The notes under the pieces: model-generated
What the model saw: the letters and a program-made list of their open reading frames with translations, nothing else
Databases searched by the model: none
Told to the model about the DNA's origin: nothing
Position numbers and translations under genes: made by a program
Shown: positions 44,918 to 53,232 of the stretch, piece after piece
How positions within the stretch are numbered: position 1 is the stretch's first letter
How the letters are laid out: every line of letters starts with the position of its first letter
Source of the DNA: an uncultured delta proteobacterium
GTDB taxonomy: Bacteria > Myxococcota_A > Polyangia > Palsa-1104
Assembly (NCBI GenBank): GCA_963785725.1
Contig: CAWAWS010000024.1
Coordinates: forward strand, 1-64,000
Direction: 5' to 3'
Length of the DNA: 64,000 bases

Positions 44918-44933
44918 AGCAACGCGCGTGCCG
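44918..44933 (-). promoter_or_regulatory. Putative sigma-54 promoter (leftward)
   Basis: Minus strand CGGCACGCGCGTTGCT, GG-N10-GC. Confidence 0.7.
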
Positions 44934-45160
44934 GACGCGCGCGGTGCCGCTGGGCGGACACGCGCACGCCCGCGCACCGGCAGAGCCCAGCGACGGCACG
45001 CGCGTGCCCTAACTCGGTGCACGACCAGGCGTTGCGGCGACGTGACCGAAGTTGCCCACCGTCGCGGTTTTGACCGTTGCGTCGGGTTTTTCACCAGCAT
45101 TCGACAACGGCCGTCACCGCGAGCGAACCCGTTTTCCGCGGCCGCAGACGCTTTTGCGCT

Positions 45161-45176
45161 GGGCACGCGGCTTGCG
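45161..45176 (+). promoter_or_regulatory. Putative sigma-54 promoter (rightward)
   Basis: GGGCACGCGGCTTGCG, GG-N10-GC, 40 nt upstream of ATG 45216; tandem direct repeats at 45061 and 45081. Confidence 0.7.
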
Positions 45177-45215
45177 ATGACAGTCGGTGAACCCGCGAAA
45201 CTCGAGGAGCTGTTG

Positions 45216-46580
45216 ATGCGCCTTTTGTCTGGAGTGATCTTGACCCTGTCGGCGATTGCCTTCGCTTACGCGGTCGATCCGTCCTTGTTCGCGCAGCTGC
45301 CCGTGCCGACGGCGGGTGGCTGGCTGCTGGGCGCGGGCGTCGTGCTGTTGGGGCTCGTGTGGCGCTGGCACAGCATGATGTTGCGCGCCGTCGCGCCGTA
45401 CACCGGCGAGGCCGCGCATGCGTCGCGCTATCCGTCGGTCACGGTCATCCGCCCGGTGCGCGGCAAGGACGTGGGCGCGGAGGACAACTTCCGCGCCGCG
45501 CTCGACACCGGCTATCCGGGCGAGGTCGAGACGCTGTTCGTGTTCGACGACGAGAACGACCCCGGCCTGCCGCTCGCGCGGGAAGTGGTGGCCGCGCACA
45601 TGGCCTCGGGCCGCGCCGGCACGGCCGGCGTCATCGTCGCCGGCGCACCGCCGGCCGGCTTCACCGGCAAGCTCAACGCGATGATCGCCGGCGAGCGCCG
45701 CGCCAAGAACGAGCTGATCGCGTTCGGCGACTCCGACACGCGCCCGGACAAGAAGGTGCTGCGCGGCGTCGTCGATGCGCTGTTGTCGCGGCCGCGCGCC
45801 GGCTCGGCGTTCGCGCCCGTCCTCGTCTACCAGCCGGCGCAGTTCGCCGGCGACGCGCTCTACGCCTTCATGCAGAACTCGATGTACTCGCCGTTGGCCG
45901 CGCATGCGTCGGGCCCGTCGCGCACGCTGCCGTTCATCATGGGTCAGCTGATGGTCTTCCGTCGCCAGGCGCTGGCTTCGATCGGCGGCGTGAGCGCGGC
46001 CAAGGGTCAGCTCGTCGACGACATGGCCATCGGTCGCGCGCTGCACGAAGCCGGCTGGGAGAACGTCATGAGCCGCAACCCGCTGCACATCGCCACCGGC
46101 GGCATGACCTTGCGCGAGTTCATCCCCATTTACCGTCGCTGGATGAGCTTCTCGAAGAATGGCCTGCCGCTGTCGTTCACGTGGCGTCAGTGGCTCGTCG
46201 GCGCGTCGTTCTTCGTCGCGCTGTTCCTGTCGCTGGGCGCGCTGGCGGTGGGCGGGGTGCGGGCGGCCGTGCCGTCGCTGGCGGCGCTGTTCCTCGTCGG
46301 CGACTCGCTCTTGCTCTTGCACAAGCGCTATGGCGGCTCGCCGATTCCGCTGCGTTTGGCGTGGGCGGCGTGGGGCGTCTTCCTCATCTCTCCCTATGTG
46401 CTGGCGACCAACCTCCTCAAGCGGAAGGTCGAATGGCGCGGGCGCAGCTACGAGCTGGCGCAGGGTGACGCGCTGGCGGCGATTCCGGCGCCGATGCACG
46501 CCGAGCCCGACCTTCTCGACCACGACGCCGACGAGCATTGGCCCGCCGAGCGCCCCGCTCCGCAGCACTTGATCGCCTAA
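45216..46580 (+). CDS. GT-A membrane glycosyltransferase (ceramide glucosyltransferase/HpnI-like)
   Basis: SVTVIRPVRG, GKLNAM, FGDSD, MGQLMVFRR, LVDDMAIG, RRW, VEWRGRSY; GAGGAG RBS. Confidence 0.85.
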   Translation: MRLLSGVILTLSAIAFAYAVDPSLFAQLPVPTAGGWLLGAGVVLLGLVWRWHSMMLRAVAPYTGEAAHASRYPSVTVIRPVRGKDVGAEDNFRAALDTGYPGEVETLFVFDDENDPGLPLAREVVAAHMASGRAGTAGVIVAGAPPAGFTGKLNAMIAGERRAKNELIAFGDSDTRPDKKVLRGVVDALLSRPRAGSAFAPVLVYQPAQFAGDALYAFMQNSMYSPLAAHASGPSRTLPFIMGQLMVFRRQALASIGGVSAAKGQLVDDMAIGRALHEAGWENVMSRNPLHIATGGMTLREFIPIYRRWMSFSKNGLPLSFTWRQWLVGASFFVALFLSLGALAVGGVRAAVPSLAALFLVGDSLLLLHKRYGGSPIPLRLAWAAWGVFLISPYVLATNLLKRKVEWRGRSYELAQGDALAAIPAPMHAEPDLLDHDADEHWPAERPAPQHLIA

Positions 46581-46607
46581 CCGCCACGTCGCTCTCGAGG
46601 TATCCCC

Positions 46608-47207
46608 ATGCGTCCTCTCATGCTCATCGTCTCGATGCTCGTGTCACAGGCCGGCCCGCGCTATCAGCACGTCGGCGGCAACCATGCGGTCGAAGTCTTT
46701 CGGCAGATGGAGTCGCCGACGATCGACCTCGTGGCCGAAGGTGACATCGACGCGCCGCCGGCGCTGATTCGCAGCATTTTGCTCGACTATCCGAACGCGC
46801 ACGCGCTCAGCGATCACGTGACCGAGAGCCGCGTCCTGACGACGGGCGCGCACGAGATCATGGTCTATCAGCGGCTGAAGCTGCCGGTGGTGAGCGACCG
46901 CGACTTCACGCTGCGCGCCTTGTGGGGCGCGCGCGGCGCCAACCTGTGGACGCGCTTCACCATCGACAACAGCCACGGTCCGGCGGCGCGCGACGGCATC
47001 GTCCGCTTGACCAACATGACCGGCGGCTGGGACTTGCAGCCGATTCGCGGCGGCGCGGCCACCCACGCCGTCTACCGCGTGCAGATGGACATGGCCGGCT
47101 CGATCCCGAAGTGGATGGTCTCGGGCGGCGCCGCCAAGGATCTGCCCAAGCTGTTCGACGGCATCCGCCGCGAGGTCGTCCGCCGCTCCGTCACCGCCAG
47201 CAATTGA
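46608..47207 (+). CDS. START/SRPBCC lipid-binding domain protein, exported
   Basis: YQRLKLPVVSDRDF, GGWDLQP, DMAGSIPKWMV. Confidence 0.8.
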   Translation: MRPLMLIVSMLVSQAGPRYQHVGGNHAVEVFRQMESPTIDLVAEGDIDAPPALIRSILLDYPNAHALSDHVTESRVLTTGAHEIMVYQRLKLPVVSDRDFTLRALWGARGANLWTRFTIDNSHGPAARDGIVRLTNMTGGWDLQPIRGGAATHAVYRVQMDMAGSIPKWMVSGGAAKDLPKLFDGIRREVVRRSVTASN

Positions 47208-47242
47208 CGCCCACGCGCCGCTCCATTTCGCGTCTTCCCAAG

Positions 47243-47260
47243 CTGTCAGCTCTGTGTCAG
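47243..47260. promoter_or_regulatory. Putative WYL-regulator box
   Basis: CTGTCAGCTCTGTGTCAG, an imperfect CTGACA-N6-TGTCAG, ending 10 nt before the WYL gene ATG. Confidence 0.6.
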
Positions 47261-47270
47261 CAATGAGCAT

Positions 47271-47900
47271 ATGCGCCGCCGCGAGCGACTGTTCGCCATC
47301 ACCGAGCACTTGCGCGGCCGCCGCAGCGGCGTGACGGCCGAGACGCTGGCGGCGCGCTTCAACGTCACCGTGCGCACGATCTATCGCGACCTCGACAGCT
47401 TGCGCGACGCGGAGCTGCCGGTGAAGGCCGAGCGCGGCGCCGGCGGCGGTTACGCGCTCGATCGCGCCTACACGCTGCCGCCGGTGAACTTCACGCCGCG
47501 CGAGGCGGCGCTGCTGGTCGCGCTCGGTCGTTGGGCGGCGGAGCTGCGCATCCTGCCGTTCGTCGAGACGCTGGCCGGCGCGCTCGACAAAGTGCGCGGC
47601 GCGCTGGGCGCATCGGCGCAGCGCGAGCTCGTCGAGCACATCGACTCCATTCAGTTCGTCGGCGTGCCGGCGCTGGGCGCGTCGCCGGCGATTCGCGCGG
47701 CCATCGAGTCGGCGTGGTTCGAGCGGCAGCCGATCCGCATTCGTTATCGCGGCGCCGACGACATCGTGTCGACACGCGTCGTACGGCTGGTGACGGTGGT
47801 GATGGAGCGCAGCCTCACCCTCCTCAACTGCGACGATCTCGACAAGGGTGAGCGACGGCAGTTTCGGCTCGATCGCATCCTGGACGCCCAGCTCGTCTGA
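47271..47900 (+). CDS. HTH-WYL (YafY-like) transcriptional regulator, short form
   Basis: LAARFNVTVRTIYRDL, GAGGGY, LPPVNFT, C-terminal RQFRLDRI. Confidence 0.92.
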   Translation: MRRRERLFAITEHLRGRRSGVTAETLAARFNVTVRTIYRDLDSLRDAELPVKAERGAGGGYALDRAYTLPPVNFTPREAALLVALGRWAAELRILPFVETLAGALDKVRGALGASAQRELVEHIDSIQFVGVPALGASPAIRAAIESAWFERQPIRIRYRGADDIVSTRVVRLVTVVMERSLTLLNCDDLDKGERRQFRLDRILDAQLV

Positions 47901-47906
47901 TCTTTA

Positions 47907-47941
47907 CTGACACAAGGCTGTCAGGAGCGCGCGCGTACGCT
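47907..47941 (+). promoter_or_regulatory. Palindrome CTGACA-N6-TGTCAG followed by -10 hexamer TACGCT
   Basis: Palindrome 47907-47924; TACGCT 47936-47941; ATG at 47949. Confidence 0.7.
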
Positions 47942-47948
47942 GTTCGAC

Positions 47949-48401
47949 ATGGAGAACCATTGGCTCGGGGTGGTGTCGCGGGCGCACGTGGAGCGCGGCG
48001 TGGCGGGCGGATTCGCGCAGCTGTGTCATGGCCGCGCGGCGCCGCTCGAGCGGATGCGGGCGGGCGATTGGCTCGTCTACTATTCGGCGACGGCGGAGAT
48101 GGGCGGCGGCGAGCGAGTGCAGGCGTTCACGGCGCTCGGCCAGCTCGTCGACGATCGCATCTACGAGGTCGACTTGGGCGATTGGCGCGCCCATCGTCGC
48201 GACGTGCGCTACGAGCCGGTCGGGCAGGTGGCGCTGGCGGAGCTGGCGCCGCAACTCCATCTGACGGCGCGGCCGCACTGGGGTTTCGCGCTGCGTCGTG
48301 GCCATCTGCCGCTCGACGCGCACGATTTCGCGATCGTCGCGCAGGCGCTGCGGCAAGCCCCGCGCCGCCGTGATACGCTCGCCGCCGCCGTCGTCCGCTG
48401 A
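47949..48401 (+). CDS. EVE domain protein
   Basis: WLGVVSRAHVERGVAGGFAQLCHG, MRAGDWLVYYS, QAFTALG, WGFALRRG, DFAIVA. Confidence 0.85.
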   Translation: MENHWLGVVSRAHVERGVAGGFAQLCHGRAAPLERMRAGDWLVYYSATAEMGGGERVQAFTALGQLVDDRIYEVDLGDWRAHRRDVRYEPVGQVALAELAPQLHLTARPHWGFALRRGHLPLDAHDFAIVAQALRQAPRRRDTLAAAVVR

Positions 48402-48444
48402 CCCCAATGATAGGCGTTGCGGCACGTATGGCGCGGAGGTCCCG

Positions 48445-49386
48445 ATGATGCGCGCTTCTTCGGTAGCGACGATTTTGGGTGCGGTGGGCTTGATTGCGAC
48501 GGGCTGTAGCGGGCACTCCGGGCTGTCGGGCACGGGCGACGGCGGCAGCGGCGGCGGCGGCGGGACGACCACCGACAGCGCGACGTTCACGATGACGCCG
48601 TTCTCGGTCGCGGCCGGCCAAGAGCTGTACTACTGTCAGACGTTCGCCAATCCCTTCGGCGCCGACGTCGAGATTTCGAGCTTCGAGTCGCACATGACGA
48701 CGGGCTCGCATCATATGTTGCTGCTGTTTCAGGACGGCGCGACGGACGGGACGCTCACGCCGTGCAGCGGGTTGACGTTCGGGCCCATGCCGTACGGGAC
48801 GCAGCAGCCGGATGGCGAGATTACCTATCCGTCGGGGATCGCGGCGCTGGTGAAGTCGACGCAAGGCTTCAACTTGGTCGTGCACTACTTGAACGCGACG
48901 ATGGCCGACATCCCGTCGACCACGGTCACGGTGACGCTGCACAAGGCGACGCCGGGAACGGTGCAGCAGCACGCGGGCGTGTTCTTCTTCGACAACATCA
49001 GCGCGCTCACGCCGTCGCTCGGCGGCGGCATCCCGCCGAACACGACGAAGACGATCACCGCCAGCTACACGACGACGCAGGACATGAATGTCATTTACGC
49101 GGTGTCGCACATGCATCAGAAGTCGCTCAATCTGACGGCGACCTACGGGACGGCGGCGACGATGCTGTACACGACCGATTCGTGGGACTCGCCGCCGTTG
49201 CAAGCCTATACGCCGCCGGTGACGCTGCCGTCGGGGACGACGATCAACTGGGCGTGCACGATCGACAACGATTCGTCGACGGAGCTGACGTTCGGCGAGT
49301 CGGCGCTGACGAACGAGATGTGCATCTTCAACGGGCAATATTGGCCCGCGCCCGACGACAGCCCGACGATCAACATCATGCGCTGA
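48445..49386 (+). CDS. PHM/DBM-type (type II) copper monooxygenase-like lipoprotein
   Basis: IATGC lipobox; SHHMLL, VVHY, SHMH, NEMC supply the five His + Met ligand pattern; GGAGG RBS. Confidence 0.8.
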   Translation: MMRASSVATILGAVGLIATGCSGHSGLSGTGDGGSGGGGGTTTDSATFTMTPFSVAAGQELYYCQTFANPFGADVEISSFESHMTTGSHHMLLLFQDGATDGTLTPCSGLTFGPMPYGTQQPDGEITYPSGIAALVKSTQGFNLVVHYLNATMADIPSTTVTVTLHKATPGTVQQHAGVFFFDNISALTPSLGGGIPPNTTKTITASYTTTQDMNVIYAVSHMHQKSLNLTATYGTAATMLYTTDSWDSPPLQAYTPPVTLPSGTTINWACTIDNDSSTELTFGESALTNEMCIFNGQYWPAPDDSPTINIMR

Positions 49387-49422
49387 CGGCGTTCGCGCGC
49401 GCGCTCGTGTATGCTCGGGCGA

Positions 49423-51045
49423 ATGCGCGCGCGCGGCTTGGTCGTCGTCGCCGGGGTCCTCGTCACCGGCTGCAGCCGCTCGCCGACGTTCACGCACGAC
49501 ATCGCGCCCATCCTGCACAGCCGCTGCGCGCCCTGCCATCACACGGGCGGCGCCGGGCCATTCCCGCTCGTCACCTACGCCGACGCCAAGCCGCGCGCGC
49601 GGCAGATCGAGCGCGTGACGGCGCGCGGCTACATGCCGCCGTGGAAAGCGGCGCCGACGGTGCATTACGCGAACGAGCGCATCCTCGACGCCGGTGAGCG
49701 CGCGCTCCTGCAGCGCTGGGCGACGGCGGGCGCGCCGCGCGGCGACGGGCCCGAGCCGACCGCGCCCGATTTCCGCGACGGCTGGCAGCTGGGCACGCCG
49801 GACGCCGTCGTCAAGCTGCCGCCGTACACGCTCGCCGCCGACGGGCCCGACGTCTATCGCAACTTCGTGCTGCCGTCGCCGCTGCCGGGCACGCGCTACA
49901 TCGCCGCCTGGGAATTTCGCCCCGACACGCGCGCCATCCATCACGCGATCTTGAACCTCGACGCGACCGGCTGGGCGCGCAAACGCGACGCGCTCGACGC
50001 CGCGCCCGGCTTCGACGGCATGGACCCCGGCGACATCCAAGCGCCCGACGGCTTCTACCTCGTGTGGACGCCGGGCCAAGCGCCGACGCCGCCCGATCCG
50101 CACGCGGCCTGGCCGCTCGACGCGCGCACCGACCTCGTGCTGCAGCTGCACCTGCGACCGACGGGAAAGCCGGAGGTCATCGCGCCGACGATCGCGCTCT
50201 ATCTCGCGCCCACGCCGCCGACGCAGGCGCGCGTCACCTTGCGCATCGGCGACGTGCCCATCGATCTGGCGCCGGGCGTGCGCGACTACAAGATCCACGA
50301 TCAGTGGACGCTGCCGGTCGCCGTCGAGCTGGTGTCGCTGTTCCCGCACGCGCATTACCTGGCGCAGCACATGCGCGTCTGGGCGCGATTTCCCGACGGA
50401 CACGAGCAGCCGCTGCTGACGATCGACGACTGGGATCCGGCGTGGCAAGACGAATACGTGTTGGCCGAGCCGCTGGCGTTGCCGCGCGGCAGCACGGTGG
50501 CGATGGAGTTCACGTACGACAACTCGGCCGCCAATCCGCGCAATCCCAATCGGCCGCCGGCGCGCGTCGTCACCGGCGAGCGCACGATCGACGAGATGGG
50601 CAACGTGACGCTGGTGGCGCGCGTGGCGTCGACGGCGGACAAGCTGCAGCTGCGCGAGGCCAAGTTTCGCCGGCAGCTGGCGGCGGGCGCCGGCGCGAAG
50701 GCGCGCTACAACCTCGGCAACACGCTCATGGCCGAGGGGCGCGCCAAAGAGGCGATCGAGGAGTTTCGGCGCGCGCTCACGCTCGATGGCGACTTGATGG
50801 CCGCGCAGGTCAACTTGGGCGCGGCGCTGCTCACGGTCGGCGACGTCGAGGGTGCGCGCGCGCAGCTCGACGCGGCGGCGCGGCGCTGGCCGGAGTCGGC
50901 GACGGCGCACGCCAACTTGGGCCGGGCGCTCGTCGCCGCCGGGCAGCGCGACGCAGCCGTGGCCGAGCTGCAGCGCGCGCTGGCGCTCGATCCCAATTTC
51001 GCGCCCGCCCGCGCCACGCTCGAAGCCCTACTCCGCCAGCGGTAA
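49423..51045 (+). CDS. Lipoprotein with c-type heme motif, PHM/DBM-like copper monooxygenase domains and TPRs
   Basis: LVTGC lipobox; CAPCH and MPPW; IHHAIL, LQLHL, PHAHYL, DEMG; ARYNLG/AQVNLG/AHANLG TPRs; TATGCT 7 nt before ATG. Confidence 0.8.
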   Translation: MRARGLVVVAGVLVTGCSRSPTFTHDIAPILHSRCAPCHHTGGAGPFPLVTYADAKPRARQIERVTARGYMPPWKAAPTVHYANERILDAGERALLQRWATAGAPRGDGPEPTAPDFRDGWQLGTPDAVVKLPPYTLAADGPDVYRNFVLPSPLPGTRYIAAWEFRPDTRAIHHAILNLDATGWARKRDALDAAPGFDGMDPGDIQAPDGFYLVWTPGQAPTPPDPHAAWPLDARTDLVLQLHLRPTGKPEVIAPTIALYLAPTPPTQARVTLRIGDVPIDLAPGVRDYKIHDQWTLPVAVELVSLFPHAHYLAQHMRVWARFPDGHEQPLLTIDDWDPAWQDEYVLAEPLALPRGSTVAMEFTYDNSAANPRNPNRPPARVVTGERTIDEMGNVTLVARVASTADKLQLREAKFRRQLAAGAGAKARYNLGNTLMAEGRAKEAIEEFRRALTLDGDLMAAQVNLGAALLTVGDVEGARAQLDAAARRWPESATAHANLGRALVAAGQRDAAVAELQRALALDPNFAPARATLEALLRQR

Positions 51046-51106
51046 ACGCGGCCCGCGTCGCGCTCGAGAATTTGCCCGCCAATTGCGCGTCTACAAACGC
51101 GGCCGT

Positions 51107-51640
51107 TCACAGCGGGTCGCCGAGGGCGCAGCCGAACGCGGGCGCCTCGGCAGTCGGCGGCGCGCGGCCGGCCAGCGCGGCAGCGATCGCGTCGTCGAGC
51201 TCGTGCGTCGTCGGCGCCGGCCGCTCGCGCGCGAAATCGATCTGCCGGTCGTCGATACGGCCGCGATACACGCGCTCCCTTCCGCGGTAGACGATCGCCT
51301 CCGGCGTCACGGTCGCGCCCATCGCCCGCGCCAGCCGATGCCGCGGATCGCGCAACGCCGGCAATGCCAAGCCGTACGCCGCCTGATGCGCGCGCACCGC
51401 CGTCACGTCGTCGTCGGGATAGACGAGATAGAAGGCCACGCCGCGCGCGCGCCATTTATCGTATTGCCGGCGCAGCTCGGGCGCCGAGCGGTTCGACAGC
51501 GGACAGCCCGTCGCCACGAACACGAGCGCCGTAACCCCGCCGCCGGCCAATGGATCGACCGAGGTGCCCGCGAGATCTACGCCGCGCGCGCATCCGCTAA
51601 CGACAAGCAGCGAGCAAACGACCCAGCGGCGCGCGCCCAT
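51107..51640 (-). CDS. Redoxin (thioredoxin-fold) lipoprotein
   Basis: VSGC lipobox; GCPLS (CxxS), ATVTPE, YRGRIDD, C-terminal FGC. Confidence 0.8.
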   Translation of the reverse strand: MGARRWVVCSLLVVSGCARGVDLAGTSVDPLAGGGVTALVFVATGCPLSNRSAPELRRQYDKWRARGVAFYLVYPDDDVTAVRAHQAAYGLALPALRDPRHRLARAMGATVTPEAIVYRGRERVYRGRIDDRQIDFARERPAPTTHELDDAIAAALAGRAPPTAEAPAFGCALGDPL

Positions 51641-51723
51641 CCTTACAATGTAGGCGTTTCGAGTTACAAAGCGTCTTGCAATCGCATGCTTGACTATTAA
51701 ACCAGCGTGCTATGCTGCGCGCC

Positions 51724-53232
51724 ATGTCAAGTCGGATTCGTGTCGTCCTCGCTTCCCTCTTCACCGTCGGTGTAGCCACGGCGTGCCTCAACCCGCCCGT
51801 GGAATCACCGACCACCGTCGTCGTTCAGGACACGCCAGTGCGCGTGCCGCAGAACGAGCAAAACCAGATCGACGTCCTCTTCATGATCGACAATTCACCG
51901 TCGATGGACGCGATGCAGACCGAGCTGAAGGCGCGCTTCGCCGACTTCTTCCAGGTCTTCCAAGATCTGGCGACGAACGGCACCTACGCCGACTTGCACA
52001 TCGGCGTCGTGACGTCCGACTACGGCGCCGGCGACACGGCCGGCGGCGGCTGCCAGGCTTCGCCGGGCGGTCAGAACGGCCTCTTGCAGGCCAAGGGCGC
52101 CGCCGCCGACGCGAGCTGCGTGGCGCCGACGAACGCGCCCTACATTCAGTACGCGTTCCAGAAGAACGGCACGCCCATCAGCAACTTGCCGGCCGGGCAG
52201 GACCTCGTGCCGACGTTCACCTGCATGGCGTCGGTCGGCGCCGGCGGCTGCGGCTTCGAGCACCAGCTCGAGTCGGTGCTGCAGGCGCTCAAGAACACGA
52301 AAGAGAACAACGGCTTCTTGCGCACCGACGCGCTCCTCGCCGTCGTCTTCGTGACCAACGAGGATGACGGCTCGGCGCCGCCGACCGCCAAGTTCTACGA
52401 GTCGGCCGCCGACCCCAGCATGTACGGCGCGTACGACACGTATCGCCAGACCGAGTTCGCCGTTTACTGCGGCGGCGTCAAGATCCCGTACGGCATGCCG
52501 ATGTCGCTCACCGGCTGCGCCGCGGCGCCGAACCTCTCGCCGACGCCCGATCCGAACTTGGCGTTCGACATCTCGCGCTACACCAACGCGTTCACGCAGC
52601 CGATCAGCCGCGGCGGCATCAAGGCCAGCGCCGACGACGTCCTGCTCTTCGCCATCGACGGCCCGGAGACGCCGGTCTCGACGGCGCTCGTGACCAGCGG
52701 CACCGGCCTCGGCGTCGCGCCCAACCCGTCGTACGTGCCTTGCGGCGCGCTCGGCACCAACTGCGTGCAGCGCCTCAACCACGTCTGCCAGAACAACGTG
52801 TCGCCGCCGTTCTTCGCCGACCCGTCGGTGCGCATCAACGCCGTCGTCAACAGCGCCAAGTTCAAGCAGACGAGCAGCATCTGCGGCGACGACTTGAACA
52901 TGGCGCCCGACTTCACCTCGGCGCTGCAGGCGCTCGGCAAGCTCATCTCGTCGCAGATCAGCCCCGGCTGCATCCCGGCCAAGCTCGCCGACCTCAACAA
53001 CCCGGAGTGCATCGTCGAAGACGTGACCGATACGGCGATGGGCCAGACGATCACGTCGATTCCGGCGTGCGCGACGGCGGGCGCGAACGTGTTCCCGTGC
53101 TGGACGATCGCCCCCAACGCGCTCTGCAACGGCATCTCGCCGCAGGGCGTCGGTATGACGGTCGAGCGCAACGGCATGGCGGCGCCGCCCAACACGAACG
53201 CCTCGGTCGAGTGCAGCACCATCGCCCAGTAA
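51724..53232 (+). CDS. vWA-domain Cys-rich lipoprotein (myxobacterial type)
   Basis: ATAC lipobox; DVLFMIDNSPSM (DxSxS MIDAS), HIGVVTSD, GCGFEHQLES, GFLR, VTNEDD. Confidence 0.85.
   Translation: MSSRIRVVLASLFTVGVATACLNPPVESPTTVVVQDTPVRVPQNEQNQIDVLFMIDNSPSMDAMQTELKARFADFFQVFQDLATNGTYADLHIGVVTSDYGAGDTAGGGCQASPGGQNGLLQAKGAAADASCVAPTNAPYIQYAFQKNGTPISNLPAGQDLVPTFTCMASVGAGGCGFEHQLESVLQALKNTKENNGFLRTDALLAVVFVTNEDDGSAPPTAKFYESAADPSMYGAYDTYRQTEFAVYCGGVKIPYGMPMSLTGCAAAPNLSPTPDPNLAFDISRYTNAFTQPISRGGIKASADDVLLFAIDGPETPVSTALVTSGTGLGVAPNPSYVPCGALGTNCVQRLNHVCQNNVSPPFFADPSVRINAVVNSAKFKQTSSICGDDLNMAPDFTSALQALGKLISSQISPGCIPAKLADLNNPECIVEDVTDTAMGQTITSIPACATAGANVFPCWTIAPNALCNGISPQGVGMTVERNGMAAPPNTNASVECSTIAQ

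What the first reader, a model, noticed from the sequence alone, without database searches (positions are those of the whole stretch)
48445..49386. Stand-alone bacterial lipoprotein with the full ligand set of animal PHM/dopamine beta-monooxygenase
Seen: SHHMLL, VVHY, SHMH and NEMC in the right order and approximate spacing. Known: PHM uses an HH pair plus one His for CuH and HxH plus Met for CuM, in motifs like HHMLL, QVHY, HTH and EMC; these enzymes hydroxylate peptidyl-glycine or amines using an external reductant. Inferred: an active extracytoplasmic dicopper monooxygenase of unknown substrate, possibly for peptide amidation or amine/lipid hydroxylation. No obvious PAL-type lyase is in the window.
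Basis: partly seen in the sequence, partly recalled or inferred. Interest (0 to 1): 0.72.

Follow-up and report, generated by a model that had tools for sequence, protein, structure and literature searches.

The report
Myxobacterial PHM-like two-copper enzyme lipoprotein
This gene encodes a likely membrane-tethered, exported bacterial relative of the two-copper enzymes that make amidated hormones and noradrenaline in animals; it keeps all six copper-binding residues but lacks the animal peptide-binding residues, so it probably hydroxylates some other, still unknown molecule, and it belongs to a large bacterial family for which I found no biochemical study.

Summary
Observation confirmed. 48445-49386 encodes a 313-aa lipoprotein: signal peptide, Gly/Ser tether, then a 270-aa core. 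The core's predicted structure matches PHM/DBH (pLDDT 97, Z 25.6). It has the CuH (H89, H90, H147) and CuM (H222, H224, M292) ligands, kept together in 277 of 294 relatives, and two Cys pairs matching PHM/DBH disulfide positions. Peptide amidation is unlikely: PHM's substrate residues R240/N316/Y318 are V220/I294/N296, and Arg occurs there in 1 of 294. The gene is not alone: 24 bp downstream lies a second PHM-fold gene fused to a CxxCH cytochrome and TPRs, facing a redoxin. That pair is conserved in three same-genus genomes without this gene, so the adjacency looks incidental. Relatives are mostly Polyangia/myxobacteria, often multicopy, with no neighbour shared across lineages. Best reading: an outer-membrane-tethered dicopper C-H hydroxylase with an unknown, probably uncharged substrate and an external electron donor; activity is untested. 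Bacterial members are known to Pfam and noted in print, but I found no biochemical study. The scan has reported related bacterial PHM-like proteins on other DNA. New variant of a known kind.

The parts
48435..48439 (+). GGAGG ribosome-binding site supporting the ATG at 48445 (or 48448) rather than the upstream GTG at 48298
   Evidence: sequence
48445..49386 (+). Gene for the 313-aa PHM/DBH-fold dicopper lipoprotein (P0001)
48445..48507 (+). Lipoprotein signal peptide ending in the lipobox IATG-C21. The mature protein has +2 Ser and +7 Leu, neither the inner-membrane (+2 Lys/Asp) nor the matrix (+7 Ala) signal described for M. xanthus/E. coli, so it is likely outer-membrane anchored
   Evidence: PMC3222651 passages; localisation is inferred
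48508..48573 (+). Gly/Ser/Thr-rich flexible tether (residues 22-43). A generic display format in this genome: 68 of 602 lipobox ORFs have such a tether
48574..48954 (+). CuH beta-sandwich (about residues 44-170): H89 and H90 (48709-48714), H147 (48883-48885), Cys64/Cys107 pair aligned with PHM C81/C126
   Evidence: the disulfide bond is inferred
48955..49383 (+). CuM beta-sandwich (about residues 171-313): H222 (49108), H224 (49114), M292 (49318), Cys271/Cys293 pair aligned with PHM C293/C315. V220/I294/N296 replace PHM R240/N316/Y318; conserved W247 and FGESA loop
49411..51045 (+). Neighbouring second PHM-fold lipoprotein (P0002, 544 aa): CxxCH heme motif (residues 39-43), ligands H177/H178/H247 and H313/H315/M396, C-terminal TPRs. 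A different clade, 18% profile identity to P0001's clade
51107..51640 (-). Convergent redoxin (AhpC/TSA, CPLS motif) lipoprotein that travels with the P0002 orthologues, not with P0001

Best explanation
The protein is a PHM/DBH-fold lipoprotein with a complete two-copper ligand set, likely anchored in the outer membrane on a flexible tether, where it is predicted to act as a dicopper monooxygenase that hydroxylates a C-H bond of a probably uncharged, non-peptidyl-glycine substrate using electrons from an outside donor. Shown: export signal, tether, fold (predicted model), six ligands, two Cys pairs, loss of the PHM carboxylate-binding residues, no fused electron carrier. Inferred from PHM/DBH chemistry: CuH (H89/H90/H147) accepts electrons; CuM (H222/H224/M292) binds O2 and abstracts H; the two domains may close on each other during turnover. 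Inferred: the donor is a periplasmic c-type cytochrome or a small redox mediator acting in trans. Other bacterial clades fuse a CxxCH cytochrome to the same core (the neighbour gene), and the genome has 81 CxxCH ORFs. The paralogue expansion and the lack of an operon suggest a general envelope or foraging tailoring enzyme with diverging substrates rather than a step in one dedicated pathway.
For: AF2 model pLDDT 97.4, pTM 0.91. Foldseek top hits are DBH/PHM at E about 1e-13; VIA-align gives Z 25.6, rmsd 2.8 A over 258 residues, with the next unrelated fold at Z 8.5. Six ligands are conserved in 277 of 294 relatives whose identity to P0001 falls to about 30%, with C64, C107, C271 and C293 at 290-294 of 294; this points to selection for copper binding in an oxidising compartment. 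Lipobox in 136 of 166. The R240/N316/Y318 positions are mostly small or aliphatic. Multicopy in Polyangia-like genomes: up to 12-13 matches per genome. No conserved neighbours across lineages.
Against: No activity, copper or expression data. Ligand distances could not be measured because no coordinates were returned. Two second-sphere residues of PHM are not kept: Q170 is V145 (Gln in 93 of 294) and Q272, which H-bonds CuM H242, is L252 (Gln in 14 of 294; placed via the profile alignments). 17 of 294 relatives lack the full ligand set yet keep the fold, so the fold can persist without this chemistry. No substrate or donor gene is linked.
Confidence: 0.65

Rival explanations
1. It is a PHM proper: it alpha-hydroxylates C-terminal glycine of peptides or N-acylglycines, giving amides.
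For: The family profile scores PHM above DBH (64 vs 46.5 bits). HHML, HY and EMC motifs and two Cys pairs are PHM-like. The Y79 position stays aromatic (Y/F in 230 of 294).
Against: R240, N316 and Y318, which bind the substrate, are present in 1, 19 and 5 of 294 relatives; N plus Y together in 1. No precursor or PAL gene is conserved nearby. The only NHL hits in the genome are two 900-1200 aa repeat lipoproteins (genome 88% complete).
Confidence: 0.07
2. It is a DBH/TBH-like benzylic hydroxylase of phenethylamines or other aromatic amines.
For: DBH also lacks the Arg (Gln in SQLHTH). DBH chain A is among the top structural matches.
Against: No DOMON or dimerisation domain. It lacks the W-x-x-G and (Y/W)xxx(F/W)Q motifs that DBH shares with the heme-fused clade. 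No acidic residue is conserved at the position after HHM (L/F in 240 of 294; the role of that Glu in DBH is recalled, not checked).
Confidence: 0.08
3. It is a copper-binding or oxidase-type protein (Cu buffering, O2 reduction to peroxide, or ligand binding) rather than a coupled monooxygenase.
For: 17 of 294 relatives lack the full ligand set (one is an alignment gap). The 13 that entered a 163-sequence tree need about 7 independent changes, and all 17 keep the four Cys, N150 and G284. No donor is fused or linked. Second-sphere Gln residues are missing.
Against: The asymmetric His3 plus His2Met design is kept exactly in 94% of relatives. Copper-homeostasis genes are not recurrent neighbours.
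Confidence: 0.15
4. It works as a dedicated partner of the adjacent heme-fused enzyme and redoxin (one three-gene system, fed by P0002's cytochrome).
For: Same strand, 24-bp gap. P0001 has no electron carrier; P0002 has CxxCH.
Against: No P0002 or redoxin relative in the 78 loci around P0001 relatives. In three same-genus genomes P0002 orthologues (59-62%) keep the redoxin, but the closest P0001 relatives lie far away or on other contigs.
Confidence: 0.05

Closest known systems
Peptidylglycine alpha-hydroxylating monooxygenase (PHM, catalytic core of PAM, EC 1.14.17.3; PDB 1PHM, 1OPM, 6ALA)
   Same: Two beta-sandwich fold (Z 19.5-25.6); His3 and His2Met sites; Cys pairs at C81/C126 and C293/C315; exported; profile E 1e-16.
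   Different: About 17% identity. No R240/N316/Y318; Q170 and Q272 not conserved; only two Cys pairs in the core; lipid anchor with Gly/Ser tether; no PAL domain; conserved Q120, N150, W247 and FGESA motifs of its own.
Dopamine beta-hydroxylase / tyramine beta-hydroxylase (PDB 4ZEL)
   Same: Same catalytic core (Z 23.8, rmsd 2.9 A over 259 residues to closed chain A); no Arg before the HxH motif.
   Different: No DOMON or dimerisation domain; lacks the WxxG and FQ motifs; profile match weaker than to PHM (46.5 vs 64 bits).
Bacterial heme c-fused PHM-like proteins with redoxin partners (uncharacterised; the neighbour P0002 is one)
   Same: Same fold and ligand set (hhalign 99.8%); lipoproteins; co-occur in the same lineage (31 of 41 relatives).
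   Different: P0001 has no CxxCH domain, has G/A/S-x-Q in place of W-x-P-G and no WQ motif, and has no linked redoxin; 18% identity between profiles.
Pfam Cu2_monoox_C (PF03712) bacterial members
   Same: [quoted passage not shown]
   Different: Annotation only; no NCBIfam model, no solved bacterial structure among PDB hits, and no substrate.

Membership tests
Copper type II monooxygenases (PHM/DBH family) | Two beta-sandwich (CuH and CuM) domains with PHM topology | tested here: met
   AF2 pLDDT 97.4; Z 25.6, rmsd 2.8, 258 aligned; predicted model
Copper type II monooxygenases (PHM/DBH family) | CuH ligands His-His...His | tested here: met
   H89/H90/H147 align with H107/H108/H172; 282, 280 and 293 of 294
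Copper type II monooxygenases (PHM/DBH family) | CuM ligands His-x-His...Met | tested here: met
   H222/H224/M292 align with H242/H244/M314; 280, 281 and 284 of 294
Copper type II monooxygenases (PHM/DBH family) | Pfam PF03712 / PF01082 domains | tested here: inconclusive
   PF03712 passes (24.7 vs 23 bits); PF01082 is not hit for P0001 and only weakly in relatives
Copper type II monooxygenases (PHM/DBH family) | Extracytoplasmic location with disulfide staples | tested here: met
   Lipobox; four core Cys at 290-294 of 294; bonds and location are inferred from sequence
Copper type II monooxygenases (PHM/DBH family) | Binds 2 Cu and couples O2 plus 2 electrons (ascorbate) to substrate hydroxylation | not testable with these tools
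   needs protein biochemistry
PHM (EC 1.14.17.3) | Arg240 salt bridge plus Asn316/Tyr318 to the peptidyl-Gly | tested here: not met
   V220/I294/N296; R in 1, N in 19, Y in 5 of 294
PHM (EC 1.14.17.3) | Partner PAL lyase, fused or separate | tested here: inconclusive
   None fused or adjacent; a genome-wide NHL search found only two large repeat lipoproteins; no PAL-specific model was used; genome 88% complete
DBH/TBH | N-terminal DOMON and C-terminal dimerisation domains | tested here: not met
   313 aa = signal, tether and catalytic core only
Bacterial heme c-fused PHM-like proteins | N-terminal CxxCH cytochrome domain, W-x-P-G and WQ motifs | tested here: not met
   Absent from P0001, present in the neighbour P0002

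The most novel reading that the evidence does not exclude
This heme-less, disulfide-stapled myxobacterial lipoprotein clade is the closest bacterial relative of eukaryotic PHM (its profile prefers PHM to DBH, 64 vs 46.5 bits, whereas the heme-fused clade scores DBH 57 vs PHM 52). It would preserve the ancestral job of the fold: hydroxylating an envelope lipid such as an N-acyl amide or ceramide at the outer membrane, through the closed two-copper conformer that its model resembles. A related member sits beside an AONS/serine-palmitoyltransferase-family gene and an ACP gene in 7 of 7 sampled genomes of one genus.
Probability: 0.12. Interest if true: 0.82.

Novelty: new variant of a known kind. 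Interest (0 to 1): 0.48.

Why it matters
The dicopper PHM/DBH chemistry has been studied almost only in animal and algal hormone and neurotransmitter enzymes. This is one of several thousand PHM-fold clusters found by the family profile (6,328 at E<=0.001, 862 at E<=1e-30); the close ones are bacterial and have a different substrate site. A substrate would define a new bacterial C-H oxidation activity and bear on where animal PHM/DBH came from. A 270-residue core with two Cys pairs and no glycans would also be a convenient bacterial system for the open question of whether these enzymes work in the open or closed Cu-Cu state (PMC12164859, PMC6123673, PMC4846438). The existence of bacterial members is not itself new (Pfam; PMC2938197 calls these enzymes of bacterial origin), so the value lies in the untested function.

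Tried and rejected
(1) Single-sequence phmmer against PDB found no true relative; profiles were needed. (2) A conserved operon: rejected. Among 79 stretches clustered (77 loci, the paralogue locus and the window), apart from generic kinases/regulators (34 loci) and ABC ATPases (9), no neighbour family occurred in more than 6. Pfam on 126 of 133 adjacent ORFs (7 left out for the residue cap; long ones cut to 600 aa) gave scattered functions. (3) Fixed partnership with P0002 and the redoxin: rejected on synteny. A complex prediction of the P0001 core with the P0002 heme domain gave no verdict (score 0.01) and is not counted either way. (4) Sphingolipid or lipid link: a ceramide-glucosyltransferase-like GT21 gene lies 1.9 kb upstream, but tblastn found such a gene in only one other held locus (L088) while this genome has about 7 copies, so there is no enrichment. 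The SPT/AONS plus ACP adjacency is confined to one genus and is convergent. Kept only as a lead. (5) A search for fused forms of 764-2180 aa found none, which the tool calls weak evidence. (6) ESM Atlas did not hold the sequences. (7) No RNA holder was listed among sequencing runs; no evidence on expression. (8) No sigma-70 promoter-like site; one terminator-like site, at chance level. (9) No NCBIfam model. (10) A tree including eukaryotic PHM/DBH could not be built because no such sequences were held. (11) PMC9177522 was not held.

Full report
**Observation.** The stretch 48445-49386 is a real gene: 313 codons, a GGAGG just before the ATG, and 90% GC at third positions. The product has a lipoprotein signal peptide (IATG-C21), a 22-residue Gly/Ser/Thr tether and a 270-residue core containing SHHMLL, VVHY, SHMH and NEMC at the stated places. 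A loose ligand regex hits 5 of 57,090 six-frame ORFs in this genome, 2 of them not hit by the family profile, so the motif alone is suggestive, not proof.

**Fold and ligands.** Pfam Cu2_monoox_C passes its cut-off narrowly (24.7 vs 23 bits). Single-sequence search of the PDB fails, but profiles of homologues find rat PHM at E 1.5e-13 and 1.3e-16, and human DBH at 1.6e-5 and 3.6e-11. The printed alignments put H89/H90/H147 on PHM H107/H108/H172, H222/H224/M292 on H242/H244/M314, and C64/C107 and C271/C293 on C81/C126 and C293/C315 (PHM numbers counted from the alignment and checked against the ligand numbers in PMC12164859, passages). The AlphaFold2 model of the core (90-sequence alignment, no templates) has pLDDT 97.4 and pTM 0.91. 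Foldseek ranks DBH and PHM first. VIA-align gives Z 25.6, rmsd 2.8 A over 258 residues to 6ALA_A; the first unrelated fold scores 8.5. The best matches include the closed conformers 6ALA_A and 4ZEL_A (closed according to PMC6123673 and PMC4846438, passages and Discussion), ahead of open 1PHM (Z 22.4, 3.3 A) and fully open 8DSJ (Z 20.4, 3.9 A). The model is metal-free, so this is only a hint. Ligand distances were not measurable because no coordinates were returned.

**Conservation.** I pooled 333 sequences; 301 covered the core and 294 remained after removing duplicates. All six ligands are present in 277 of 294, and the four core cysteines in 290-294. The lipoprotein pattern is present in 136 of 166 full-length members versus 1,043 of 8,300 shuffles, with Gly or Ser at +2 in 105 of 136. 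By the M. xanthus rules (+2 Lys inner membrane, +7 Ala matrix; PMC3222651 passages) P0001 (+2 Ser, +7 Leu) would go to the outer membrane; whether it faces the periplasm or the surface is unknown. The lipobox-plus-tether format is generic here: 68 of 602 lipobox ORFs in the genome have it.

**Substrate site.** PHM binds peptidyl-glycine through R240, N316 and Y318. These are V220, I294 and N296 in P0001, and R, N and Y in 1, 19 and 5 of 294 relatives; an alignment-independent count of the residue two before the HxH gave Arg in 1 of 277. Q170 is V145 (Gln in 93 of 294). Q272, which H-bonds H242, maps to L252 (Gln in 14 of 294; mapping through, less certain). The clade instead conserves E60, Q65, Q120, N150, W247 and the FGESA loop. 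There is no DOMON domain, and the DBH-type WxxG and FQ motifs are absent. The residues at the PHM substrate positions are mostly small or aliphatic and variable, which fits uncharged, diverging substrates (inference).

**Surroundings.** A second PHM-fold gene starts 24 bp downstream (49411-51045). It has a lipobox, CAPCH, the six ligands and C-terminal TPRs. Its profile finds DBH at E 1.8e-14 and PHM at 4.7e-13, and its model (pLDDT 87) matches PHM/DBH. The two clades align at 99.8% probability but 18% identity. A redoxin lipoprotein faces it (51107-51640). In three same-genus genomes the P0002 orthologues keep the facing redoxin, while the nearest P0001 relatives lie elsewhere, and none of the 78 loci around P0001 relatives holds either gene. 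P0001 is therefore functionally solitary, and its position here looks incidental. The genome holds a third, 27%-identical heme-less paralogue on contig C33. No neighbour family is shared across lineages. One genus with one or two matches per genome keeps a more distant member convergent to an AONS/SPT-family gene with an ACP gene in 7 of 7 genomes fetched; this is synteny within one genus and was seen in no other held locus.

**Distribution.** Named relatives are almost all Polyangia/Myxococcales genomes and soil MAGs, including Minicystis rosea. P0001 has matches in 33 of 41 related genomes (up to 12 each); the clade profile at E<=1e-25 hits 43 of 121 class genomes (up to 13). PF03712 passes its cut-off in 89 of 201 phylum genomes and 0 of 14 control genomes. 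The profile finds 6,328 clusters at 50% identity with E<=0.001 and 862 with E<=1e-30; the weak end includes other clades and may be inflated by the Gly-rich tether in that profile.

**Mechanism.** Most likely (0.65) an outer-membrane-tethered dicopper monooxygenase: CuH relays electrons from an external donor, and CuM activates O2 and hydroxylates a C-H bond of a non-peptidyl, probably uncharged substrate. The fold, ligands, Cys pairs and export signal are shown by sequence and model; copper loading, catalysis, donor and substrate are inferred. A c-type cytochrome in trans is a reasonable donor: sister clades fuse one, the genome has 81 CxxCH ORFs, and two related loci have tandem paralogues followed by a cytochrome c lipoprotein (L037, L050). 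Against: 17 of 294 relatives lack the full ligand set while keeping the fold, in about 7 separate events among the 13 placed on a 163-sequence tree, and no donor or substrate gene is linked. Rivals: Cu-binding or oxidase role (0.15), DBH-like amine hydroxylase (0.08), true PHM (0.07), dedicated partner of P0002 (0.05).

[quoted passage not shown] 2004, which I saw only as a reference entry. Eight searches aimed at bacterial members (listings and abstract openings) turned up no biochemical study. In two reviews of PHM/PAM, word searches showed no bacterial homologue (PMC12164859, PMC6529398, passages); PMC12912966 and PMC12665527 (passages) concern other enzymes. The library omits most subscription journals and I read no supplements, so a study may exist. 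No bacterial structure of the family appeared among PDB hits. Earlier scan notes describe related bacterial PHM-like proteins in other genomes; they are unchecked and not counted as support. Verdict: a real, probably active new variant of the PHM/DBH kind, not a PHM or a DBH, with an open substrate question. Interest 0.48.

Noticed in passing
window 49411-51640: Heme c-PHM-TPR lipoprotein facing a CxxS redoxin lipoprotein; the pair is conserved in three same-genus genomes (L100-L102). Its core has no cysteines, unlike P0001.
   Followed up: yes
L001:7646-8740 (G000 contig C33): Third PHM-fold lipoprotein of this genome, 27% identical, directly downstream of a GH5 glycoside hydrolase gene on the same strand.
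   Followed up: partly
P0090, P0094, P0156, P0159, P0168, P0174, P0175, P0183, P0184, P0203, P0205, P0217, P0245 and others: Relatives that have lost most copper ligands but keep the four cysteines, N150, G284 and mostly W247: apparent pseudoenzymes that arose several times.
   Followed up: partly
L123-L129: In one genus a family member lies convergent to an AONS/serine-palmitoyltransferase-family gene with an acyl carrier protein gene, and near a MaoC dehydratase, in 7 of 7 genomes fetched.
   Followed up: partly
L037:331-5776 and L050:7491-11522: Two or three tandem paralogues with an extra Cys-rich N-terminal module, followed by a cbb3-type cytochrome c (two Pfam stretches) plus rhodanese lipoprotein: a possible electron donor.
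   Followed up: no
P0181: The only one of 294 relatives with Arg at the PHM R240 position.
   Followed up: no
window 44928-48401: Same-strand run upstream: GT21 (ceramide glucosyltransferase-like) gene, START/polyketide-cyclase domain protein, HTH-WYL regulator, EVE-domain protein; not conserved beside P0001 relatives.
   Followed up: partly
L084:459-2259: Two divergent heme-less PHM-fold lipoprotein genes in tandem in a same-genus genome.
   Followed up: no
window 51712-53232 and L001:8979-10436: An unannotated 506-aa lipoprotein has an 86%-identical copy just downstream of the C33 paralogue, so both heme-less PHM-like loci of this genome lie near a copy of the same gene.
   Followed up: no
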